Sequence record: OQ955832.1
Source of the DNA: Escherichia phage vB_EcoS_PJ16
Length of the DNA stretch: 57,756 nucleotides
Reading direction: 5' to 3' (one strand)
A program made the position numbers and the translations under genes. How positions within the stretch are numbered: position 1 is the stretch's first letter; every line of letters starts with the position of its first letter. This document shows positions 23,360-30,118 of the stretch, in pieces. The notes beneath the pieces are model-generated. The model was not told where the DNA came from and searched no databases. It saw nothing but the letters and a program-made list of their open reading frames with translations.

Positions 23360-23791
23360 ATGGCTAAGGCTAACGTTAACGATATAAACCGGATAACAGG
23401 TGTCTTTAAAGACATTAAAGCTGACTTGCGAGATTTTACCGATCGTGAAGTCATCCGGTATGTCCTGACGTTACGTAATATTCTTGTCAGTGAACCACCT
23501 GACGGTACACCTGTGGATACAGGCTGGGCAAGTAACAACTGGTGGTTCGATCAGGGGCAACCCGCTAATAGTCCTGATACACCAACAGGTAATGTTGAAG
23601 CCAGTAAAGCACGTATCGAACAGGATACGGTCACTATCAGCAGTATTAAAGTTAATGGTCAGGAACTGCATATTACTAACAACGTTCCTTACATTGGGGT
23701 TCTCAATGGTGGTAGCAGTACACAGACACCTTCCGGGTTTGTCGAACGTGCTATATTAAAAGCCGGAATAATGGTGAGGTTTAATCAGTGA
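23360..23791 (+). CDS. Neck/tail completion protein (putative)
   Basis: Track ORF 23318-23791 trimmed to ATG 23360 (GGAG RBS). Confidence 0.4.
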   Translation: MAKANVNDINRITGVFKDIKADLRDFTDREVIRYVLTLRNILVSEPPDGTPVDTGWASNNWWFDQGQPANSPDTPTGNVEASKARIEQDTVTISSIKVNGQELHITNNVPYIGVLNGGSSTQTPSGFVERAILKAGIMVRFNQ

Positions 23792-24213
23792 TGACACTCT
23801 CAGATGTTTCAGGAATTGTTTATAATCGCGTTCTGGCGAATCTTCCCGTGGAAATTACACCTGACCGATTTACAATCGCTTCTGGTCAACTCCCTGATGA
23901 CACTACAGAAAAACCAGGTTTGATTCTGACACACAATCCCGGCCCGCGGACAATAACCACGCTGGGTGGGGAAGGTGTTTGTCGTCGTCGTTTAAGAACA
24001 GGAAACGTTTTTTTACAGGTACGCACACCTGCTCAGTATGGTATGGACACTTTGAGTATTGATATTGCGGATCGGCTTGCAAAATTATTTGAAGGTGTCT
24101 GGCAGGACCGCCCGTTAATTTACACGAGTGTTGATATTCGTCATCAGGGTCGTGATAACGCGTGGTTTTTAACGAACGTCGTACTTAGTTACGAATACGA
24201 AGAAATATATTAA
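23788..24213 (+). CDS. Tail terminator-like protein (putative)
   Basis: 141 aa, immediately upstream of major tail protein. Confidence 0.4.
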   Translation: MMTLSDVSGIVYNRVLANLPVEITPDRFTIASGQLPDDTTEKPGLILTHNPGPRTITTLGGEGVCRRRLRTGNVFLQVRTPAQYGMDTLSIDIADRLAKLFEGVWQDRPLIYTSVDIRHQGRDNAWFLTNVVLSYEYEEIY

Positions 24214-24249: not shown

Positions 24250-25707
24250 ATGGCTGAATCAATTTTTAAATGTTCGCAAACACCTGCGGCTGACGTAAAC
24301 GCAACACGACTCAGTGTGGCAAAAGTCTGTGAACCTGTTTCTGGTACACCCTGGACGGTTCAACAACCGAATGAAATCAGTTCTTACAGTGCTGATATTA
24401 CAAAGACTCAGCGTACACCGATCAGTACGGACCGATCTGCACGTAAAGGCACAGTAACTAACGTTGAAGTTGCACCGGGTTTTCAGACAGACCTGACACT
24501 TGATACGTTCCGCTACTGGGGTGACGGATTCCTTTACAGTAAATGGGTCGGTGCTGGTGCAATTGATATTGACGTTACCAGTGTTGGCGGTGACGCTTAT
24601 AACGTTACTACTCTTGATGCGGCATTACCTGAAGGTTCTCTTGTTTATGCGACAGGTTTTACACTGGCTGCAAACAACGGTTTGAAAACTGTAGGCGCTG
24701 ATAGTACCACTACAGCTATCAACGTGTCAGGGCTTACTGCCGAAGCGTCACCGCCTGCTGAAGCTCGTTTGTATCTCGTGGGCTATGCAGCAACGTCTGG
24801 TGATATCGCTGTTAACAGTAATGGTCAGTTGACGTCTACCACCCTGGATTTTTCCACACTGGGTTTAGTACCTGGTCAGTATATTTATATTGACGGTCTA
24901 ACACAGTCGGTTACCAGTAAAATGGCCCGCGTGACTATGGTTGGTGATCATGTTCTGACTCTCGCTAACAGTGAATTCACCACTGAAGAAGGTACGGGTA
25001 AAACTGTACGTTTATTTGTTTCCAGTTTTGTTCGAAACGTTCCTGTTGACTCTGCAGAGTTCGTTAAAACTGAATACACAATGGAAGCACGTTACAACAC
25101 GACACCTGTCATTTATGAATATGCGCGTGCTGTAGCTGCAAATCAGATGACGATCAACGCGCCGTTGACTGAAAAAATGACAATGGATCTGACGTTTGTC
25201 GCACAAGACTTGTCAGCACCGTCAGAAACCGCGTTACCGGGTTCCGGGTATATTGAATTCGTGGCTAACGAAGCGTACAACACCGTAACGAACCTGAACC
25301 GTGTACGACTGACCGGGATTGATGATAGTGGACTCAGTACGTTCCTGAAAGACGTTACTGTCTCCGTGAATAACAACGTGTCAGGTGAAAACGTGCTGGG
25401 CGTGATGGGTGCTGCGTTTACCAACATCGGTAACCTGGAAATCACGATGGAAACTGAAACGGTGATGACGGATGGTGCTGTATTGGCTGCGATCCGTAAC
25501 AACGCGACCGTTAACTTCGAACTTGCTGGGGTAAACGGTGATGGTGCAATCGTGGTTAACATTCCTGCGATGACACTGGGCGACGGTTCTAAGAACCTGG
25601 CAACTGGCGAAAAAGTGAAAGTTACTGTCAGTGGTAATGCTCACGAAGAAGAATCGATCGGCTTTATGATTGGTTTCAGCTTGTTCCCGTACTTGCCTAC
25701 AGCATGA
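24250..25707 (+). CDS. Major tail (tube) protein (putative)
   Basis: 485 aa, Thr/Val/Gly-rich; position before chaperone pair and tape measure; terminator follows. Confidence 0.55.
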   Translation: MAESIFKCSQTPAADVNATRLSVAKVCEPVSGTPWTVQQPNEISSYSADITKTQRTPISTDRSARKGTVTNVEVAPGFQTDLTLDTFRYWGDGFLYSKWVGAGAIDIDVTSVGGDAYNVTTLDAALPEGSLVYATGFTLAANNGLKTVGADSTTTAINVSGLTAEASPPAEARLYLVGYAATSGDIAVNSNGQLTSTTLDFSTLGLVPGQYIYIDGLTQSVTSKMARVTMVGDHVLTLANSEFTTEEGTGKTVRLFVSSFVRNVPVDSAEFVKTEYTMEARYNTTPVIYEYARAVAANQMTINAPLTEKMTMDLTFVAQDLSAPSETALPGSGYIEFVANEAYNTVTNLNRVRLTGIDDSGLSTFLKDVTVSVNNNVSGENVLGVMGAAFTNIGNLEITMETETVMTDGAVLAAIRNNATVNFELAGVNGDGAIVVNIPAMTLGDGSKNLATGEKVKVTVSGNAHEEESIGFMIGFSLFPYLPTA

Positions 25708-25727: not shown

Positions 25728-25751
25728 GCCCGGTTAACGCCGGGCTTTTTT
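25728..25751 (+). terminator. Rho-independent terminator
   Basis: Stem gcccgg/ccgggc then T6. Confidence 0.7.
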
Positions 25752-25812: not shown

Positions 25813-26235
25813 ATGTCAAAGTTTGACCATCTGAAAAAAGCACTTTCCCCATTAGTGCTGAAGTCTTCTGCTGAACTGATTTTAAATGAAAATTTCAGTA
25901 TCACTGTGTTGAACCTGAACACCGCTAATCAGGTATATAACGTAACAGTCGCGGACTATGTAAAACAAAACGGTGTGTTGTCTGAAAACTTCTTTGAAAA
26001 ACTGTGGAATCAGGAATATACACCAGAAGGTGTTAAGTTCGTGGCTAACGTTCTTATGCTGGACTGGAAACTGATTGGTGAAGATGACAAACCGGAACCA
26101 TTCAGTGTTGAAGAAGCTATTGAACTGTTAAGTGATGAACGTTTTGGTCAGGTGATCTACAGTCGTGTTATTCAGTTCGCAATTAATTCCGCATTCTTCA
26201 AGGACGAATGGGAAAAACAGATTGAAAAAAACTGA
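25813..26235 (+). CDS. Tail assembly chaperone (G-like)
   Basis: 140 aa, acidic; ends with slippery heptamer A_AAA_AAC just before stop. Confidence 0.6.
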   Translation: MSKFDHLKKALSPLVLKSSAELILNENFSITVLNLNTANQVYNVTVADYVKQNGVLSENFFEKLWNQEYTPEGVKFVANVLMLDWKLIGEDDKPEPFSVEEAIELLSDERFGQVIYSRVIQFAINSAFFKDEWEKQIEKN

Positions 26236-26531
26236 TCGACTTCCTCTTGTGGAACGATAAGACAGACGGGGACGACCTGGACTGGGTTACACAAGGGGCG
26301 GCTGCACGTGGTATATCTGTTCCGGTTGTTGTACAGAAACGACCTAGATTGCGACCTGATGCTATATTTTTTTGGAATGCTTACGTGGATCTGATGGAAG
26401 CTGATTGGGTTGCTTGTGAGCGATATGCACGGGTGTATAACGTTGATGTACAATTCCTATGGAAATTATTGGTAGCGTTGCGGTCTGCACGTGTTGTCGA
26501 GATGAAGAAAAATAAACACAAGCCCGGTTAG
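26226..26531 (+). CDS. Tail assembly chaperone -1 frameshift extension (GT-like)
   Basis: -1 frame opens at 26226 within the heptamer and runs to 26531; track ORF 26247-26531 is the same frame. Confidence 0.5.
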   Translation, partial: KKLIDFLLWNDKTDGDDLDWVTQGAAARGISVPVVVQKRPRLRPDAIFFWNAYVDLMEADWVACERYARVYNVDVQFLWKLLVALRSARVVEMKKNKHKPG

Positions 26532-26544
26532 TTCCGGGCTTTTT
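26519..26544. terminator. Bidirectional rho-independent terminator
   Basis: Stem agcccgg/ccgggct with U-rich tracts on both strands between convergent genes. Confidence 0.65.
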
Positions 26545-26623
26545 CATTTATGTAGTCGAGGATTGCAGGAGAGTATTTAAACCACTCTGTAGCACCGTCA
26601 AAACCTTTAAGACGCGCGTTAAG

Positions 26624-27235
26624 TTAATGATAGACCTTGTGTACCTCTTGTTCCAGTTTATACGCGTCGGCGCCTTGTGGGAACGGATACGACACGAGTT
26701 TAACCACGGGGTGTGGAGTTCGTCGTTGTAGTTGTCGTAGTCGCTGTTTTAAGTCGTTTGTAATACCAACTTTAAGCAGAGTAGGACACTGTTTATCGTC
26801 AGTTAACACGTAGAGCGTTCCGTGTTCTGACGGGTTAAAACCTGTTTCAGCGCACTGGGGGCAACCTTGTTTCATTGAAGTGTGATTGTTCGGAGTCTGT
26901 TCAAACACACCGTGTTCTGAACAAATGATTTTCACAGGAGTACACCGATTAACATACTCCACCAACGAATAGTCGTAACGGTCCCCGTGAACTTCACGGG
27001 CGCGTGTAATAAACTCTTCTGTGGTTAAACGTTGTTGCTTAACTGCACATTGGGGACAACCTCTCCCGCGAACATGATTATTAGGAATCTGTTCAAACAC
27101 ACCATGTTCAGGACAGGTGATCTTCACAGGAGTACACCAATTCACATACACCACTAGCGAGTAATCGTATTTGTGCCCATGAACTTCACGGGCACGTGTG
27201 ATAAATTCTTCTGTGGTTAAACGTTTCCTACTCAT
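26624..27235 (-). CDS. T5orf172 (GIY-YIG-like) domain protein with duplicated zinc-ribbon domains
   Basis: Two tandem copies of EEFITRAREVHG-YDYS...GCPQCA; C-terminal GTLYVLTDD...KVGIT...EQEVH resembles T5orf172 domain. Confidence 0.55.
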   Translation of the reverse strand: MSRKRLTTEEFITRAREVHGHKYDYSLVVYVNWCTPVKITCPEHGVFEQIPNNHVRGRGCPQCAVKQQRLTTEEFITRAREVHGDRYDYSLVEYVNRCTPVKIICSEHGVFEQTPNNHTSMKQGCPQCAETGFNPSEHGTLYVLTDDKQCPTLLKVGITNDLKQRLRQLQRRTPHPVVKLVSYPFPQGADAYKLEQEVHKVYH

Positions 27236-27236
27236 C

Positions 27237-27416
27237 TTATTTGTCGCTTTTTAACACAGCCCAGATTAACGCACCTAACCAACCGACGAATGTCCAACCC
27301 GCAAAGATGTTAAGTAAAATAATTGCTGTTTGTTGTTTATGTTTAATGTTAATCGCGATGAGTGCTGGGATCAGATATACAGCAGCGATTAAGAAAAGAA
27401 TGATGAAAGTAGCCAT
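27237..27416 (-). CDS. Small membrane protein, superinfection-immunity-like (59 aa)
   Basis: Not in track; strong RBS GGAGGG; NIFAGWTFVGWLGALIWAV resembles Imm-type motif. Confidence 0.45.
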   Translation of the reverse strand: MATFIILFLIAAVYLIPALIAINIKHKQQTAIILLNIFAGWTFVGWLGALIWAVLKSDK

Positions 27417-27444
27417 TTTGTAACCCTCCGTTGTTTTGTTGATT

Positions 27445-27492
27445 GTAGGTTACACGTCTTTGTGTAATCCGTCAAGAATTATTTTAAACGTT
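27445..27492 (-). promoter_or_regulatory. sigma70-type promoter with UP element (conserved family)
   Basis: -35 TTGACG (27470-27475), 17-bp spacer, TAACCT; leader paralogous to 12895 promoter. Confidence 0.55.
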
Positions 27493-27550
27493 TGTCGCTT
27501 TTTAGACCCGTGTTAAACTGTGTACATGCTTCGTGAAAAGGTTAACCACA

Positions 27551-30118
27551 ATGGCACAGTATCCGATTGATATAAAAATAGACACTGGTAACGCTGACAG
27601 AAATCTTAACAGTCTTAATAACCAGTTAGACCAAACAGCTAATTCTGCAAAATCTGCTGCACAAGCGGCAAACACTTTATCAAAAAGTGAACAGCAAGCT
27701 GCAAAATCTGCACAAGTAATGGCGTCAAATACTGGTAACGCTACATCATCTTTAAAGACGATGGCATCTGGCGTAAATCTTGCAACAAACGCCGTTCGTG
27801 GTTTTATGGCAATAGGTGCGGTGTCTTCTGCTATTGAGTTAGGAAAAGCGTTTATTGTTGCGGGTGATGCAGCTAATCAACTCGAAGCTCGTATTGCAAG
27901 ATTGACCGGGAGTACATCATCAGCCAAACAAACATTTCAAACACTCGCGGATATTGCCTCTAAAACAGGTGGTGGTCTTGCTGATACTGAACGTTTATGG
28001 GAAACCTTATCATCATCATTAAAGGATAGCGGTGCAACAAACGATCAGATATTACGATTAACTGAAACACTTCAAAAAATAGGTCGTGTTGGTGGTTCAT
28101 CTGCTGAAGAAATGTCTAACGCATTACGTCAGTTTGGTCAGTCAATTTCATCTGGTGTAGTTCGTGCAGAAGAATTTAACAGCATTGTTGAACAGATGCC
28201 AGAACTGGCAAGACAGATGGCTGCTGGTTTAGGTATTTCAATGGGTGAGTTACGTCAGCAAATGCTGAATGGTGAACTTACAGCGGAACAAGCATTGAAC
28301 GCTATCATTCGTCAAACGCAAAATGTTGATGAAGAATTTAGCAAATTGCCACGGTCTTTAGATCAGGCCACAAATTCGTTATCTGTATCGTTAGCCACGT
28401 TTGTTGCAAGCATGAATGATGTGACTGGAGCATCAAATCTTGCTGTAGACGCTATTGATACACTTACAGGTTTCATCAATAAATTAGGCGATGATTCAAC
28501 AACAACTGCTGATAAATTGTGGTCAATAGCTGGCGTAATATCTAAGTTACAACCTGGTGCTATCGGAGCATCCCTTGCCGATCTGGTCTGGTCAAATGAT
28601 GATGTAAATAATGCAAAAGCGTACAATGACCAGGTTGATAGATTTGTTAAAGCATCTGCTGCTGGATACGAACAAGCTAAAAAAAACCGTGATGCTACAA
28701 AACCTATTTCTATAAAAGGGACAAATGCATCAGACGCGGAAGCACAAAAACAGATTAAAAACCTAAAAGAACAGATCACTTACACCCAGGCGCTTGCTGA
28801 CGGTAACTATGAACTGGCAGCAAGTCAGAAACTGGGTAACAAAGCAACAAAGGAACAGATTGCAGACTACGCCGCGTTGTTGAAACAACAGGCAGAATAT
28901 AAAGAAAATCAAAAAAACCAGAAGAAATCAGCGAGTGCTGAAGCATCTGCTGCTAAACGTGCACAGAAAGAACTGGAACGTAATCAGGCTGCTAACCAGA
29001 AATACCTGAAAACGCTTCAGGATAAAATCAATGCTGGTAATTATGATGTTCAGTTAGCCCGCGAACAGGTTCAGATTGCTTTAACACAGGGATCGTCTGT
29101 TGAGCAACTTACAGCAACGTATCAGAAAGAATATCAGGTACGTCAACAGTTAACGCTGGCATCACAACAGGCAGAAGCACAGTCACGACTGAATAAAGAC
29201 GCGACTGATGCTGAACGTGCTGCCGTTGATGCGCATGTGGCTGCGTTGCAACGTCAACAGCAGATAGCACAGTTAAGCGCAGATGTAAAACAAGTTGACA
29301 TTGATGTGAAAGCACAGTTGAACCCGTATCAATCACAAATTGATCAGGTTAATCAACAGGAAGCAACACGTCTTAGTATTACCCAAGCTGCCCGTGAACA
29401 AGATTTAATCAACGAGCAACAATACCAGGATATGAAAACGCAGATTCAACAGGCTGGTGAACAAGCCCGTACGAATCTTGCAAATGCTAACTACAGCTTG
29501 TTGCTACAATCCAGTGCTGATTTTTTGGGTCAAATGGCTGCTGGTCTGGCACAATCTAAAGGTGAGCAATCAAACGCGTATAAAGCGATGTTTGCACTGT
29601 CTAAAGCCTTTAGTATTGCACAGGCAAGCATTAACCTGTGGACAGCAGTTAGCCAGGCTATGGCGTTGCCGTTCCCGGCGAATATTCCATTCATTGCACA
29701 GGCTTTAGCATACGGAACAAGCGTGTTAGGTAATATTCAGTCTGTGGCTGCAACAGGTTTTGCAACGGGTGGTTATGTTAAAGGACCGGGTACAGGTCAG
29801 AGTGACAGTATAAACGCACGTTTGAGTAATGGTGAATTTGTCAGCACCAAACAGGCTACCAGTCGTTATCGTAGCACTCTGGAAGCAATGAATCGTGGGA
29901 CATACACCCCCGGGTCTGAAGGTGGTTCATCACCTAATATTCAGGTTCATAACTACGGTGGTGAACGTGTTCAGGTGAAACAAGGATTAACACGGGATGA
30001 TGTAGTGCTTATCATAGGTGAAGAATTCCCACGACAATCAGCGGCACAATGGAATGACCCGTACAGTCAGACGAATAAAGCATTCAGGTCTAACTATGAT
30101 GCGAACAGGAAAATATAA
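27551..30118 (+). CDS. Tail tape measure protein
   Basis: Track ORF 27533-30118; 856-861 aa, helical, Q/A-rich; position after chaperone pair. Confidence 0.8.
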   Translation: MAQYPIDIKIDTGNADRNLNSLNNQLDQTANSAKSAAQAANTLSKSEQQAAKSAQVMASNTGNATSSLKTMASGVNLATNAVRGFMAIGAVSSAIELGKAFIVAGDAANQLEARIARLTGSTSSAKQTFQTLADIASKTGGGLADTERLWETLSSSLKDSGATNDQILRLTETLQKIGRVGGSSAEEMSNALRQFGQSISSGVVRAEEFNSIVEQMPELARQMAAGLGISMGELRQQMLNGELTAEQALNAIIRQTQNVDEEFSKLPRSLDQATNSLSVSLATFVASMNDVTGASNLAVDAIDTLTGFINKLGDDSTTTADKLWSIAGVISKLQPGAIGASLADLVWSNDDVNNAKAYNDQVDRFVKASAAGYEQAKKNRDATKPISIKGTNASDAEAQKQIKNLKEQITYTQALADGNYELAASQKLGNKATKEQIADYAALLKQQAEYKENQKNQKKSASAEASAAKRAQKELERNQAANQKYLKTLQDKINAGNYDVQLAREQVQIALTQGSSVEQLTATYQKEYQVRQQLTLASQQAEAQSRLNKDATDAERAAVDAHVAALQRQQQIAQLSADVKQVDIDVKAQLNPYQSQIDQVNQQEATRLSITQAAREQDLINEQQYQDMKTQIQQAGEQARTNLANANYSLLLQSSADFLGQMAAGLAQSKGEQSNAYKAMFALSKAFSIAQASINLWTAVSQAMALPFPANIPFIAQALAYGTSVLGNIQSVAATGFATGGYVKGPGTGQSDSINARLSNGEFVSTKQATSRYRSTLEAMNRGTYTPGSEGGSSPNIQVHNYGGERVQVKQGLTRDDVVLIIGEEFPRQSAAQWNDPYSQTNKAFRSNYDANRKI

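What the first reader, a model, noticed from the sequence alone, without database searches (positions are those of the whole stretch)
26226..26232. Programmed -1 ribosomal frameshift site in the tail assembly chaperone
The heptamer A_AAA_AAC sits in the last codons of the G-like gene, immediately before its TGA. The -1 frame opens exactly at 26226 (a TGA closes it at 26223-26225) and continues for about 100 codons to 26531, the classic G/GT arrangement upstream of the tape measure gene.
Basis: partly seen in the sequence, partly recalled or inferred. Interest (0 to 1): 0.55.

Follow-up and report, generated by a model that had tools for sequence, protein, structure and literature searches.

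The report
Known tail-chaperone −1 frameshift site

Summary
A_AAA_AAC (26226-26232) lies in the zero frame as the last two sense codons of a 140-aa tail assembly chaperone gene (25813-26235). The −1 frame opens exactly at 26226 and runs 101 codons to TAG 26529-26531.

The heptamer alone is not unusual: 21 copies in the window against about 26 expected. The arrangement is unique among 410 slippery heptamers. The in-frame heptamer, with a −1 frame open 84-101 codons, is present in 21 relatives. These include Morganella, Proteus and Vibrio phages whose G proteins are only 25-37% identical to this one.

The extension is under purifying selection only in the −1 frame (dN/dS 0.07-0.08). It has no Shine-Dalgarno sequence, and in 9NA it holds no start codon at all, so it can only be made as a G-T fusion of 239 aa.

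The window is a Sashavirus. The same site is already annotated as a −1 frameshift in Salmonella phages Sasha (gp44/45) and 9NA (gp48/49). No family-wide stimulatory RNA structure is supported.

One correction: the tape measure gene does not follow directly. A 1-kb minus-strand endonuclease cassette lies in between.

Verdict: real, ordinary, already known.

The parts
25813..26235 (+). G-like tail assembly chaperone gene (140 aa, zero-frame product)
26226..26232 (+). Slippery heptamer A_AAA_AAC, the −1 shift site. P-site AAA (Lys) and A-site AAC (Asn) re-pair to AAA AAA.
   Evidence: Sequence and phase. Invariant and in frame in 13 of 13 phages and 9 of 9 viral contigs. Lowest synonymous variability of the whole G-T region (0.13 against a mean of 0.33).
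26233..26235 (+). G stop codon (TGA) immediately 3' of the heptamer. Together with the −1-frame TGA at 26223-26225 it limits any productive shift to a 10-nt stretch.
   Evidence: The stop is 0 codons after the heptamer in the Sasha/9NA/Klebsiella clade and 1 codon after it in the Morganella, Proteus and Vibrio phages.
26232..26531 (+). T segment: the −1-frame extension, 99 codons plus TAG. It is expressed only as the C-terminal part of the 239-aa G-T fusion.
   Evidence: phrog_8233 profile positions 141-250, E=1.5e-28. Weak Pfam Phage_TAC_18 match, 19.1 bits, below the cut-off. dN/dS 0.07-0.08 in this frame only. No SD before TTG 26247. No conserved start codon.
26240..26301 (+). Candidate, unproven downstream hairpin. 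Stem 26243-26251 with 26290-26298, plus 26240-41 with 26300-01; 7-10 nt after the heptamer.
   Evidence: MFE −21.1 kcal/mol, z=−2.3; extended fold. One U-A to C-G double change in 9NA. No RNAalifold consensus over 13 phages, and covariation no better than the slid controls. Synonymous-site dip not exceptional. No Rfam frameshift element.
26520..26541 (+). Intrinsic-terminator-like hairpin carrying the T stop codon (TAG 26529-31) in its loop, followed by a T-run
   Evidence: The same element is annotated as a terminator in the phage Sasha record.
27551..30118 (+). Tape measure protein gene, the functional partner of G and GT. Probable ATG at 27551; the ORF lister starts it at GTG 27533.
   Evidence: PF20155 TMP_3 E=6e-53. 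phrog_1107 E=1e-137. SD-like AAAGG before ATG 27551 and none before GTG 27533.
24250..25707 (+). Major tail tube protein gene, the inferred binding partner of the T domain
   Evidence: PF18906 Phage_tube_2 E=1e-16. The Sasha and 9NA orthologs are annotated as major tail (tube) protein.

Best explanation
This is a programmed −1 ribosomal frameshift of the lambda G/GT type. Most ribosomes translating the chaperone gene (25813-26235) decode ...GAA AAA AAC and terminate at TGA, giving the 140-aa G protein. A small fraction slip one base backward while tRNA-Lys (P site, AAA) and tRNA-Asn (A site, AAC) occupy A_AAA_AAC. They re-pair to AAA_AAA, read CTG next, and continue for 99 more codons to TAG 26529-31. 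The product is a 239-aa G-T fusion (...EKQIEKN-LIDFLLWN...).

By analogy with lambda, G coats the tape measure protein, and the rare GT molecules recruit the tail tube protein through their T domain. Neither protein ends up in the virion.

Shown here: the sequence geometry, its conservation, the coding constraint in the −1 frame, and the absence of an independent start.

Inferred: that the shift is ribosomal, that its efficiency is low (A_AAA_AAC is a weak site in E. coli), and what the two proteins do.
For: - Geometry.
- Unique among 410 heptamers in the window.
- The G and T halves match the two halves of one PHROG tail-assembly-chaperone profile.
- Synteny with tail tube and tape measure genes.
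- Heptamer invariant and in frame at the G terminus in 13 phages down to 25% G identity, and in 9 metagenomic viral contigs, always with a −1 frame open 84-101 codons.
- dN/dS 0.07-0.08 in the −1 frame only, with amino-acid conservation starting at the first codon after the heptamer.
- No SD, and no conserved or even present start codon for T.
- The same site is annotated as a −1 frameshift product in Sasha gp45 and 9NA gp49.
- A_AAA_AAC is a proven −1 site in E. coli (IS1) with no established stimulator, and is much less shifty there than A_AAA_AAG. That fits the low G:GT ratio needed: PMC4066793 and PMC5009743.
Against: - No experimental evidence for the fusion protein in this phage or its relatives could be retrieved. 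The main 9NA-like genomics paper is not held, and the 9NA announcement does not mention the shift.
- Pfam and NCBIfam copies give no significant hit to G.
- No stimulatory element is established, so efficiency cannot be estimated.
Confidence: 0.93

Rival explanations
1. The fusion is made by transcriptional slippage. RNA polymerase adds one extra A on the A-run (7 A at 26225-26231), producing a minority mRNA in which G and T are in one frame. The product would be ...EKK-LIDF..., with Lys in place of Asn at the junction.
For: The site is a homopolymeric A-run of 7 in the Sasha/9NA clade. Inserting one A gives the same downstream frame. Transcriptional slippage is a known recoding route in bacteria and IS elements (PMC5009743).
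Against: - The run is only 6 A in the Klebsiella, Morganella, Proteus and Vibrio relatives, and is never longer than 7. From general knowledge, efficient bacterial slippage needs about 9 or more.
- What is invariant is the full, correctly phased heptamer including the 3' C. That is what tandem tRNA re-pairing requires and polymerase slippage does not.
Confidence: 0.04
2. T is an independent gene, initiated on its own (TTG 26247, as Bas82 and other automatic annotations call it) or by termination-reinitiation after the G stop. No frameshift is involved.
For: ORF callers list 26247-26531 as a 94-aa TTG ORF. Several deposited records (Bas82, Proteus, Vibrio phages) annotate a separate downstream 'tail assembly chaperone' or 'tail chaperonin'.
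Against: - There is no SD-like pairing in the 20 nt before TTG 26247 (dG 0).
- The TTG is CTG in 9NA/SP069 and CAG in the Klebsiella phages.
- The 9NA T frame has no ATG, GTG or TTG anywhere.
- The residues between the heptamer and the TTG (LIDFL) are conserved as protein.
- The conserved slippery heptamer would be left unexplained.
Confidence: 0.02
3. The −1 ORF is a non-functional accident, i.e. an open frame that is not expressed.
For: The heptamer alone is no more frequent than chance.
Against: dN/dS is 0.07-0.08 specifically in that frame across phages whose synonymous sites are near saturation (pS 0.66-0.70). The frame is open in 22 of 22 genomes. The PHROG profile match is E=1.5e-28.
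Confidence: 0.01

Closest known systems
Salmonella phage Sasha gp44/gp45 and Salmonella phage 9NA gp48/gp49 (annotated tail assembly chaperone and its −1 frameshift product)
   Same: Orthologous genes: 95.6% and 80.3% nucleotide identity over the region. They share the A_AAA_AAC heptamer as the last two sense codons of G, the −1 extension (101 or 92 codons) and the terminator hairpin at the T stop.
   Different: In Sasha and 9NA the tape measure gene follows T within about 60-70 nt. In this window a 1-kb minus-strand endonuclease plus small-gene cassette intervenes, as in Escherichia phage Bas82. Conversely, the window lacks the minus-strand gene that Sasha carries between the tail tube gene and G.
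Bacteriophage lambda G/GT (Levin, Hendrix and Casjens 1993; Xu, Hendrix and Duda 2004, 2013, 2014, as reviewed in PMC5009743)
   Same: Two overlapping ORFs lie between the major tail and tape measure genes. [quoted passage not shown] It works as a low-efficiency shift without a demonstrated stimulator.
   Different: No detectable sequence similarity to lambda G or T was found with the tools used. According to PMC5009743, G_GGA_AAG is highly shift-prone in E. coli; that lambda uses it is from my own knowledge, not a tool result. Here the heptamer is A_AAA_AAC. The overlap is minimal, at 10 nt, with the G stop abutting the heptamer.
IS1 insA-insB' −1 frameshift at A_AAA_AAC in E. coli
   Same: The same heptamer in an enterobacterial host. 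It is a proven low-level −1 shift with no established stimulator (PMC4066793).
   Different: An unrelated gene system (a transposase). It shows only that this heptamer works on E. coli ribosomes.

Membership tests
Phage tail assembly chaperone G/GT programmed −1 frameshift (Xu, Hendrix and Duda 2004 paradigm) | Two overlapping ORFs located between the major tail (tube) gene and the tape measure gene, on the same strand | tested here: met
   The order is tail tube 24250-25707, G 25813-26235, T to 26531, tape measure 27551-30118. One caveat: a 1-kb minus-strand cassette separates T from the tape measure gene. It is absent in Sasha and 9NA.
Phage tail assembly chaperone G/GT programmed −1 frameshift (Xu, Hendrix and Duda 2004 paradigm) | A slippery X_XXY_YYZ heptamer in the zero-frame phase inside the overlap of the two ORFs | tested here: met
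   A_AAA_AAC at 26226-26232 lies within the 10-nt overlap 26226-26235.
Phage tail assembly chaperone G/GT programmed −1 frameshift (Xu, Hendrix and Duda 2004 paradigm) | The second ORF lacks its own translation start and is conserved as protein from the shift site onward | tested here: met
   No SD before TTG 26247. The start codon is not conserved and is absent in 9NA, and dN/dS is 0.07-0.08 in the −1 frame only.
Phage tail assembly chaperone G/GT programmed −1 frameshift (Xu, Hendrix and Duda 2004 paradigm) | Conservation of the frameshift arrangement among diverged relatives | tested here: met
   13 of 13 phages (Salmonella, Escherichia, Klebsiella, Morganella, Proteus, Vibrio; G identity down to 25%) and 9 of 9 viral contigs.
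Phage tail assembly chaperone G/GT programmed −1 frameshift (Xu, Hendrix and Duda 2004 paradigm) | The first ORF encodes a protein of the tail-assembly-chaperone family or fold | tested here: met
Phage tail assembly chaperone G/GT programmed −1 frameshift (Xu, Hendrix and Duda 2004 paradigm) | The fusion protein is actually produced, at a low fixed ratio to G, and is required for tail assembly | not testable with these tools
   This needs proteomics, a reporter assay or genetics. No held paper reports it for 9NA-like phages.
Stimulated −1 PRF signals (dnaX or IS911 type: heptamer plus upstream SD-like and/or downstream hairpin or pseudoknot) | A conserved downstream RNA structure 5-9 nt after the heptamer, supported by covariation | tested here: inconclusive
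   Hairpins are predicted in the window (z=−2.3), 9NA (z=−3.3) and Proteus Isfahan (z=−4.3), but in different registers, and none in one of the two Vibrio phages folded. There is no RNAalifold consensus and covariation does not exceed the slid controls.
Stimulated −1 PRF signals (dnaX or IS911 type: heptamer plus upstream SD-like and/or downstream hairpin or pseudoknot) | An SD-like sequence about 10 nt upstream of the heptamer | tested here: not met
   The window's best anti-SD duplex is −5.1 kcal/mol at −29, within background (25% of random 30-mers reach −4 or lower). Only some relatives (9NA/Klebsiella GGGAG, Henu15 GGGAGGA) carry a stronger motif.

The most novel reading that the evidence does not exclude
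The exact heptamer A_AAA_AAC, placed 0-1 codons before the G stop, has been kept unchanged across a phage lineage that spans Enterobacterales and Vibrio hosts with G proteins only 25-37% identical to this one. In the Sasha/9NA/Klebsiella clade it may be assisted by the abutting stop codon and by a long-range hairpin (26240-26301). On that reading, this lineage uses a fixed, tuned 'weak heptamer plus adjacent stop' signal, rather than the freely drifting slippery sites usually described for G/GT genes.
Probability: 0.25. Interest if true: 0.25.

Novelty: already known. Interest (0 to 1): 0.1.

Why it matters
The main value is for annotation. Automatic pipelines miss the fusion. All 23 database homologs are G-only proteins of 135-142 aa. 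Bas82 and the Proteus and Vibrio phages list T as a separate gene, and Klebsiella VLCpiS10a, e270.1 and Salmonella SP069 do not annotate T at all. The correct annotation for this genome is a joined CDS, 25813..26232 with 26232..26531, giving a 239-aa product, alongside the 140-aa G. Biologically it is one more instance of the nearly universal G/GT strategy in long-tailed phages. It opens no new question.

Tried and rejected
1. Downstream stimulatory structure. Single-sequence folds looked promising, with a stem 7-10 nt after the heptamer and one U-A to C-G double change in 9NA. Across 13 phages RNAalifold found no consensus. Pair counting was no better than partners slid by +1 or +2 columns. 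The Morganella and Proteus hairpins use a different register, and of the two Vibrio phages folded, 13VV501A has none above shuffles and K453 only a weak, more distant one.

2. Synonymous-site suppression 3' of the site. There is a dip at codons 132-164, but equal dips occur elsewhere, so it is not decisive.

3. Upstream SD-like stimulator. Not present in the window.

4. Rfam. No frameshift element. The only match is a sub-threshold Trp_leader hit (30.7 bits against a gathering score of 41) on the terminator hairpin at 26464-26547, which I take as a chance resemblance of a terminator.

5. Sequence search of the fusion against the PDB and NCBIfam. Nothing found.

7. Literature on experimental detection of GT in 9NA-like phages. 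The searches found nothing, and the key J Virol 2019 paper (PMC6819911) is not held.

8. +1 frameshift. Excluded, because the +1 frame closes after 8 codons.

Full report
**What the sequence shows**

The 3' end of the ORF 25813-26235 reads ...CAG ATT GAA AAA AAC TGA. The heptamer AAAAAAC occupies 26226-26232 and is phased A_AAA_AAC relative to that ORF. The ORF's TGA is 26233-26235. In the −1 frame a TGA lies at 26223-26225, so that frame opens exactly at 26226. It stays open for 101 codons, to TAG 26529-26531. The +1 frame closes after 8 codons. A productive shift can therefore only happen inside a 10-nt stretch that consists of the heptamer and the stop codon. A shift after AAC is decoded gives a 239-aa fusion...WEKQIEKN-LIDFLLWNDKTDG....

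**Is it more than chance?**

The heptamer alone is not. AAAAAAC occurs 21 times on both strands, against 26.1 ± 4.8 in dinucleotide-preserving shuffles. The arrangement is. Of 410 X_XXY_YYZ heptamers in the window, 24 lie in a zero frame open for at least 100 codons upstream. Only this one also has a −1 frame open for at least 80 codons downstream.

**Identity of the genes**

- The window is a Sashavirus, a 9NA-like siphovirus. It is 95-98% identical over this region to Sashavirus BDX09P1 and 536P12, Escherichia phages Bas82, AVIO78A and PDP46, and Salmonella phages Sasha, Sergei and Solent. It is 80% identical to 9NA and 75% to Klebsiella phage VLCpiS10a.
- The upstream ORF matches phrog_8233 'tail assembly chaperone' (E=3e-48, profile positions 5-140) and phrog_313 (E=2e-18).
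- The −1 extension matches positions 141-250 of the same phrog_8233 profile (E=1.5e-28). The two frames are therefore the two halves of one family of fused GT proteins.
- The flanking genes are a tail terminator (23788-24213), the tail tube protein (24250-25707, PF18906) and the tape measure protein (to 30118, PF20155 E=6e-53).
- The local Pfam and NCBIfam copies do not hit G. Database homologs carry PF27119.

**Comparative evidence**

I examined 13 phages in detail: the window, Sasha, Bas82, 9NA, SP069, Klebsiella VLCpiS10a and e270.1, Morganella Henu15, Proteus Isfahan and RS10pmA, and Vibrio 13VV501A, K453 and 1.033.O. The last six have G proteins only 25-37% identical to the window's.

- In every one, A_AAA_AAC is present in the zero-frame phase, 0 or 1 codon before the G stop, and the −1 frame is open for 84-98 codons beyond that stop.
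- AAAAAACT is an invariant block in an alignment that is otherwise 76% identical.
- Nine further viral metagenome contigs show the same arrangement.
- Between the window and 9NA or VLCpiS10a, synonymous sites are close to saturation (pS 0.66-0.70). dN/dS of the extension is 0.073 and 0.082 in the −1 frame, and 1.1-2.6 in the other two frames. The extension is therefore a translated protein-coding sequence.

**Independent initiation is excluded**

- The first candidate start in the T frame of the window, TTG 26247, has no anti-SD complementarity in the preceding 20 nt.
- That codon is CTG in 9NA and SP069, and CAG in the Klebsiella phages.
- The 9NA T frame contains no ATG, GTG or TTG at all.
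- The residues between the heptamer and that TTG are conserved as protein.

**Prior knowledge**

The GenBank records of Sasha (gp44, and gp45 'frameshift product') and 9NA (gp48, and gp49 'translated with −1 frameshift') already annotate this orthologous site as a joined CDS. Other records miss it. Bas82, the Proteus phages and Vibrio K453 call T a separate chaperone gene. VLCpiS10a, e270.1 and SP069 leave it unannotated. All 23 homologs in the large protein collection are G-only proteins of 135-142 aa.

The lambda G/GT paradigm is a low-level −1 shift giving a G:GT ratio of about 30:1. G binds the tape measure protein, the T domain recruits the tail tube protein, and neither is found in virions. 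This is summarised in PMC5009743. The same review and PMC4066793 state that A_AAA_AAC is much less shift-prone in E. coli than A_AAA_AAG. They also describe it as the proven −1 site of IS1, with no established stimulator. I could not retrieve any experimental demonstration of GT in 9NA-like phages. The 2019 J Virol genomics paper is not held, and the 9NA genome announcement does not mention the shift.

**Mechanism and possible stimulators**

The best-supported mechanism is tandem slippage of tRNA-Lys and tRNA-Asn on A_AAA_AAC.

- *Downstream hairpin.* One is predicted in the window (26243-26251 paired with 26290-26298, extendable by 26240-41 with 26300-01). The spacer is 7-10 nt, the energy −21 to −23 kcal/mol, and z=−2.3. 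9NA shows a U-A to C-G double change in it. Over the 13 phages, however, RNAalifold finds no consensus, and covariation of this helix does not exceed versions with the 3' partner slid by 1-2 columns. The Morganella and Proteus phages fold hairpins in another register, and of the two Vibrio phages folded, 13VV501A has none above shuffles and K453 only a weak one.
- *Synonymous variability.* It is lowest at the slip site (0.13 against a mean of 0.33) and lowish up to about codon 164. Similar dips occur elsewhere.
- *Upstream SD-like element.* None is present in the window.
- *Rfam.* It has no matching element.

A stimulator is therefore possible in this clade but not established. The conserved stop codon abutting the heptamer is the only other recurring feature.

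*Transcriptional slippage.* On the A-run this remains a minor rival. The run is 7 A here but 6 in half of the relatives, and what is conserved is the phased heptamer with its 3' C. The two mechanisms predict different junction residues, Asn against Lys.

**Correction to the 'classic arrangement'**

In Sasha, 9NA and VLCpiS10a the tape measure gene starts about 60-70 nt after T. In the window it starts about 1 kb later, at a probable ATG 27551. Between the two lie minus-strand genes. The first, 26624-27235 (203 aa), has DUF723 and T5orf172/GIY-YIG-like domains and matches phrog_681 endonuclease at E=1e-58. The second, 27237-27416, is 59 aa. Bas82 carries a longer version of the same cassette. 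A terminator-like hairpin at 26520-26541 holds the T stop codon in its loop. It is also annotated in Sasha.

**Verdict**

The feature is the standard tail-assembly-chaperone frameshift and is already annotated in close relatives. It is ordinary and already known, and its practical value is limited to correct annotation of the joined CDS.

Noticed in passing
window 26624-27416 (minus strand): A two-gene minus-strand cassette sits between T and the tape measure gene. One gene is a 203-aa endonuclease with DUF723 repeats and a T5orf172/GIY-YIG-like domain (phrog_681, E=1e-58). The other is a 59-aa ORF whose Bas82 homolog is annotated 'superinfection immunity protein'. The cassette is absent from Sasha, 9NA and VLCpiS10a. 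The window's endonuclease has 2 rather than 3 DUF723-like repeats and lacks about 40 C-terminal residues compared with Bas82's 305-aa version, so it may be a decaying homing endonuclease.
   Followed up: partly
window 27400-27488; L001 2471-2496; L002 2428-2496; L003 2815-2892; L004 2407-2496: The 5' flank of the window's minus-strand cassette is homologous (74-100%; 26 nt identical to Sasha) to the sequence just upstream of G in Sasha, 9NA, Bas82 and VLCpiS10a. There it flanks different minus-strand genes inserted between the tail tube gene and G. This suggests a shared promoter or insertion module for mobile cassettes on either side of the G-T genes.
   Followed up: no
window 26520-26541 and 25728-25745: Terminator-like hairpins lie directly after the tail tube gene and at the end of T. 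The T stop codon TAG sits in the loop of the second one, which also scores on the minus strand. So the tube, chaperone and tape measure genes are separated by potential attenuation points. A sub-threshold Rfam Trp_leader hit (30.7 bits) at 26464-26547 covers the T-end terminator hairpin (26520-26541) and is probably only that.
   Followed up: partly
window 27533-27553: The mechanical ORF start for the tape measure gene (GTG 27533) has no SD. The ATG at 27551 is preceded by AAAGG and gives 855 aa, the same length as the Bas82 protein. It is the likelier start.
   Followed up: partly
L014 1881-1907 (Morganella phage Henu15); L002, L004 and L020 upstream of the heptamer: Some relatives carry a strong SD-like motif about 10-18 nt upstream of the heptamer: GGGAGGA in Henu15 (−10.2 kcal/mol) and GGGAG in 9NA and the Klebsiella phages (−7.3). 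The placement is reminiscent of the dnaX upstream stimulator. The window and Sasha have lost it (GGGAA).
   Followed up: partly
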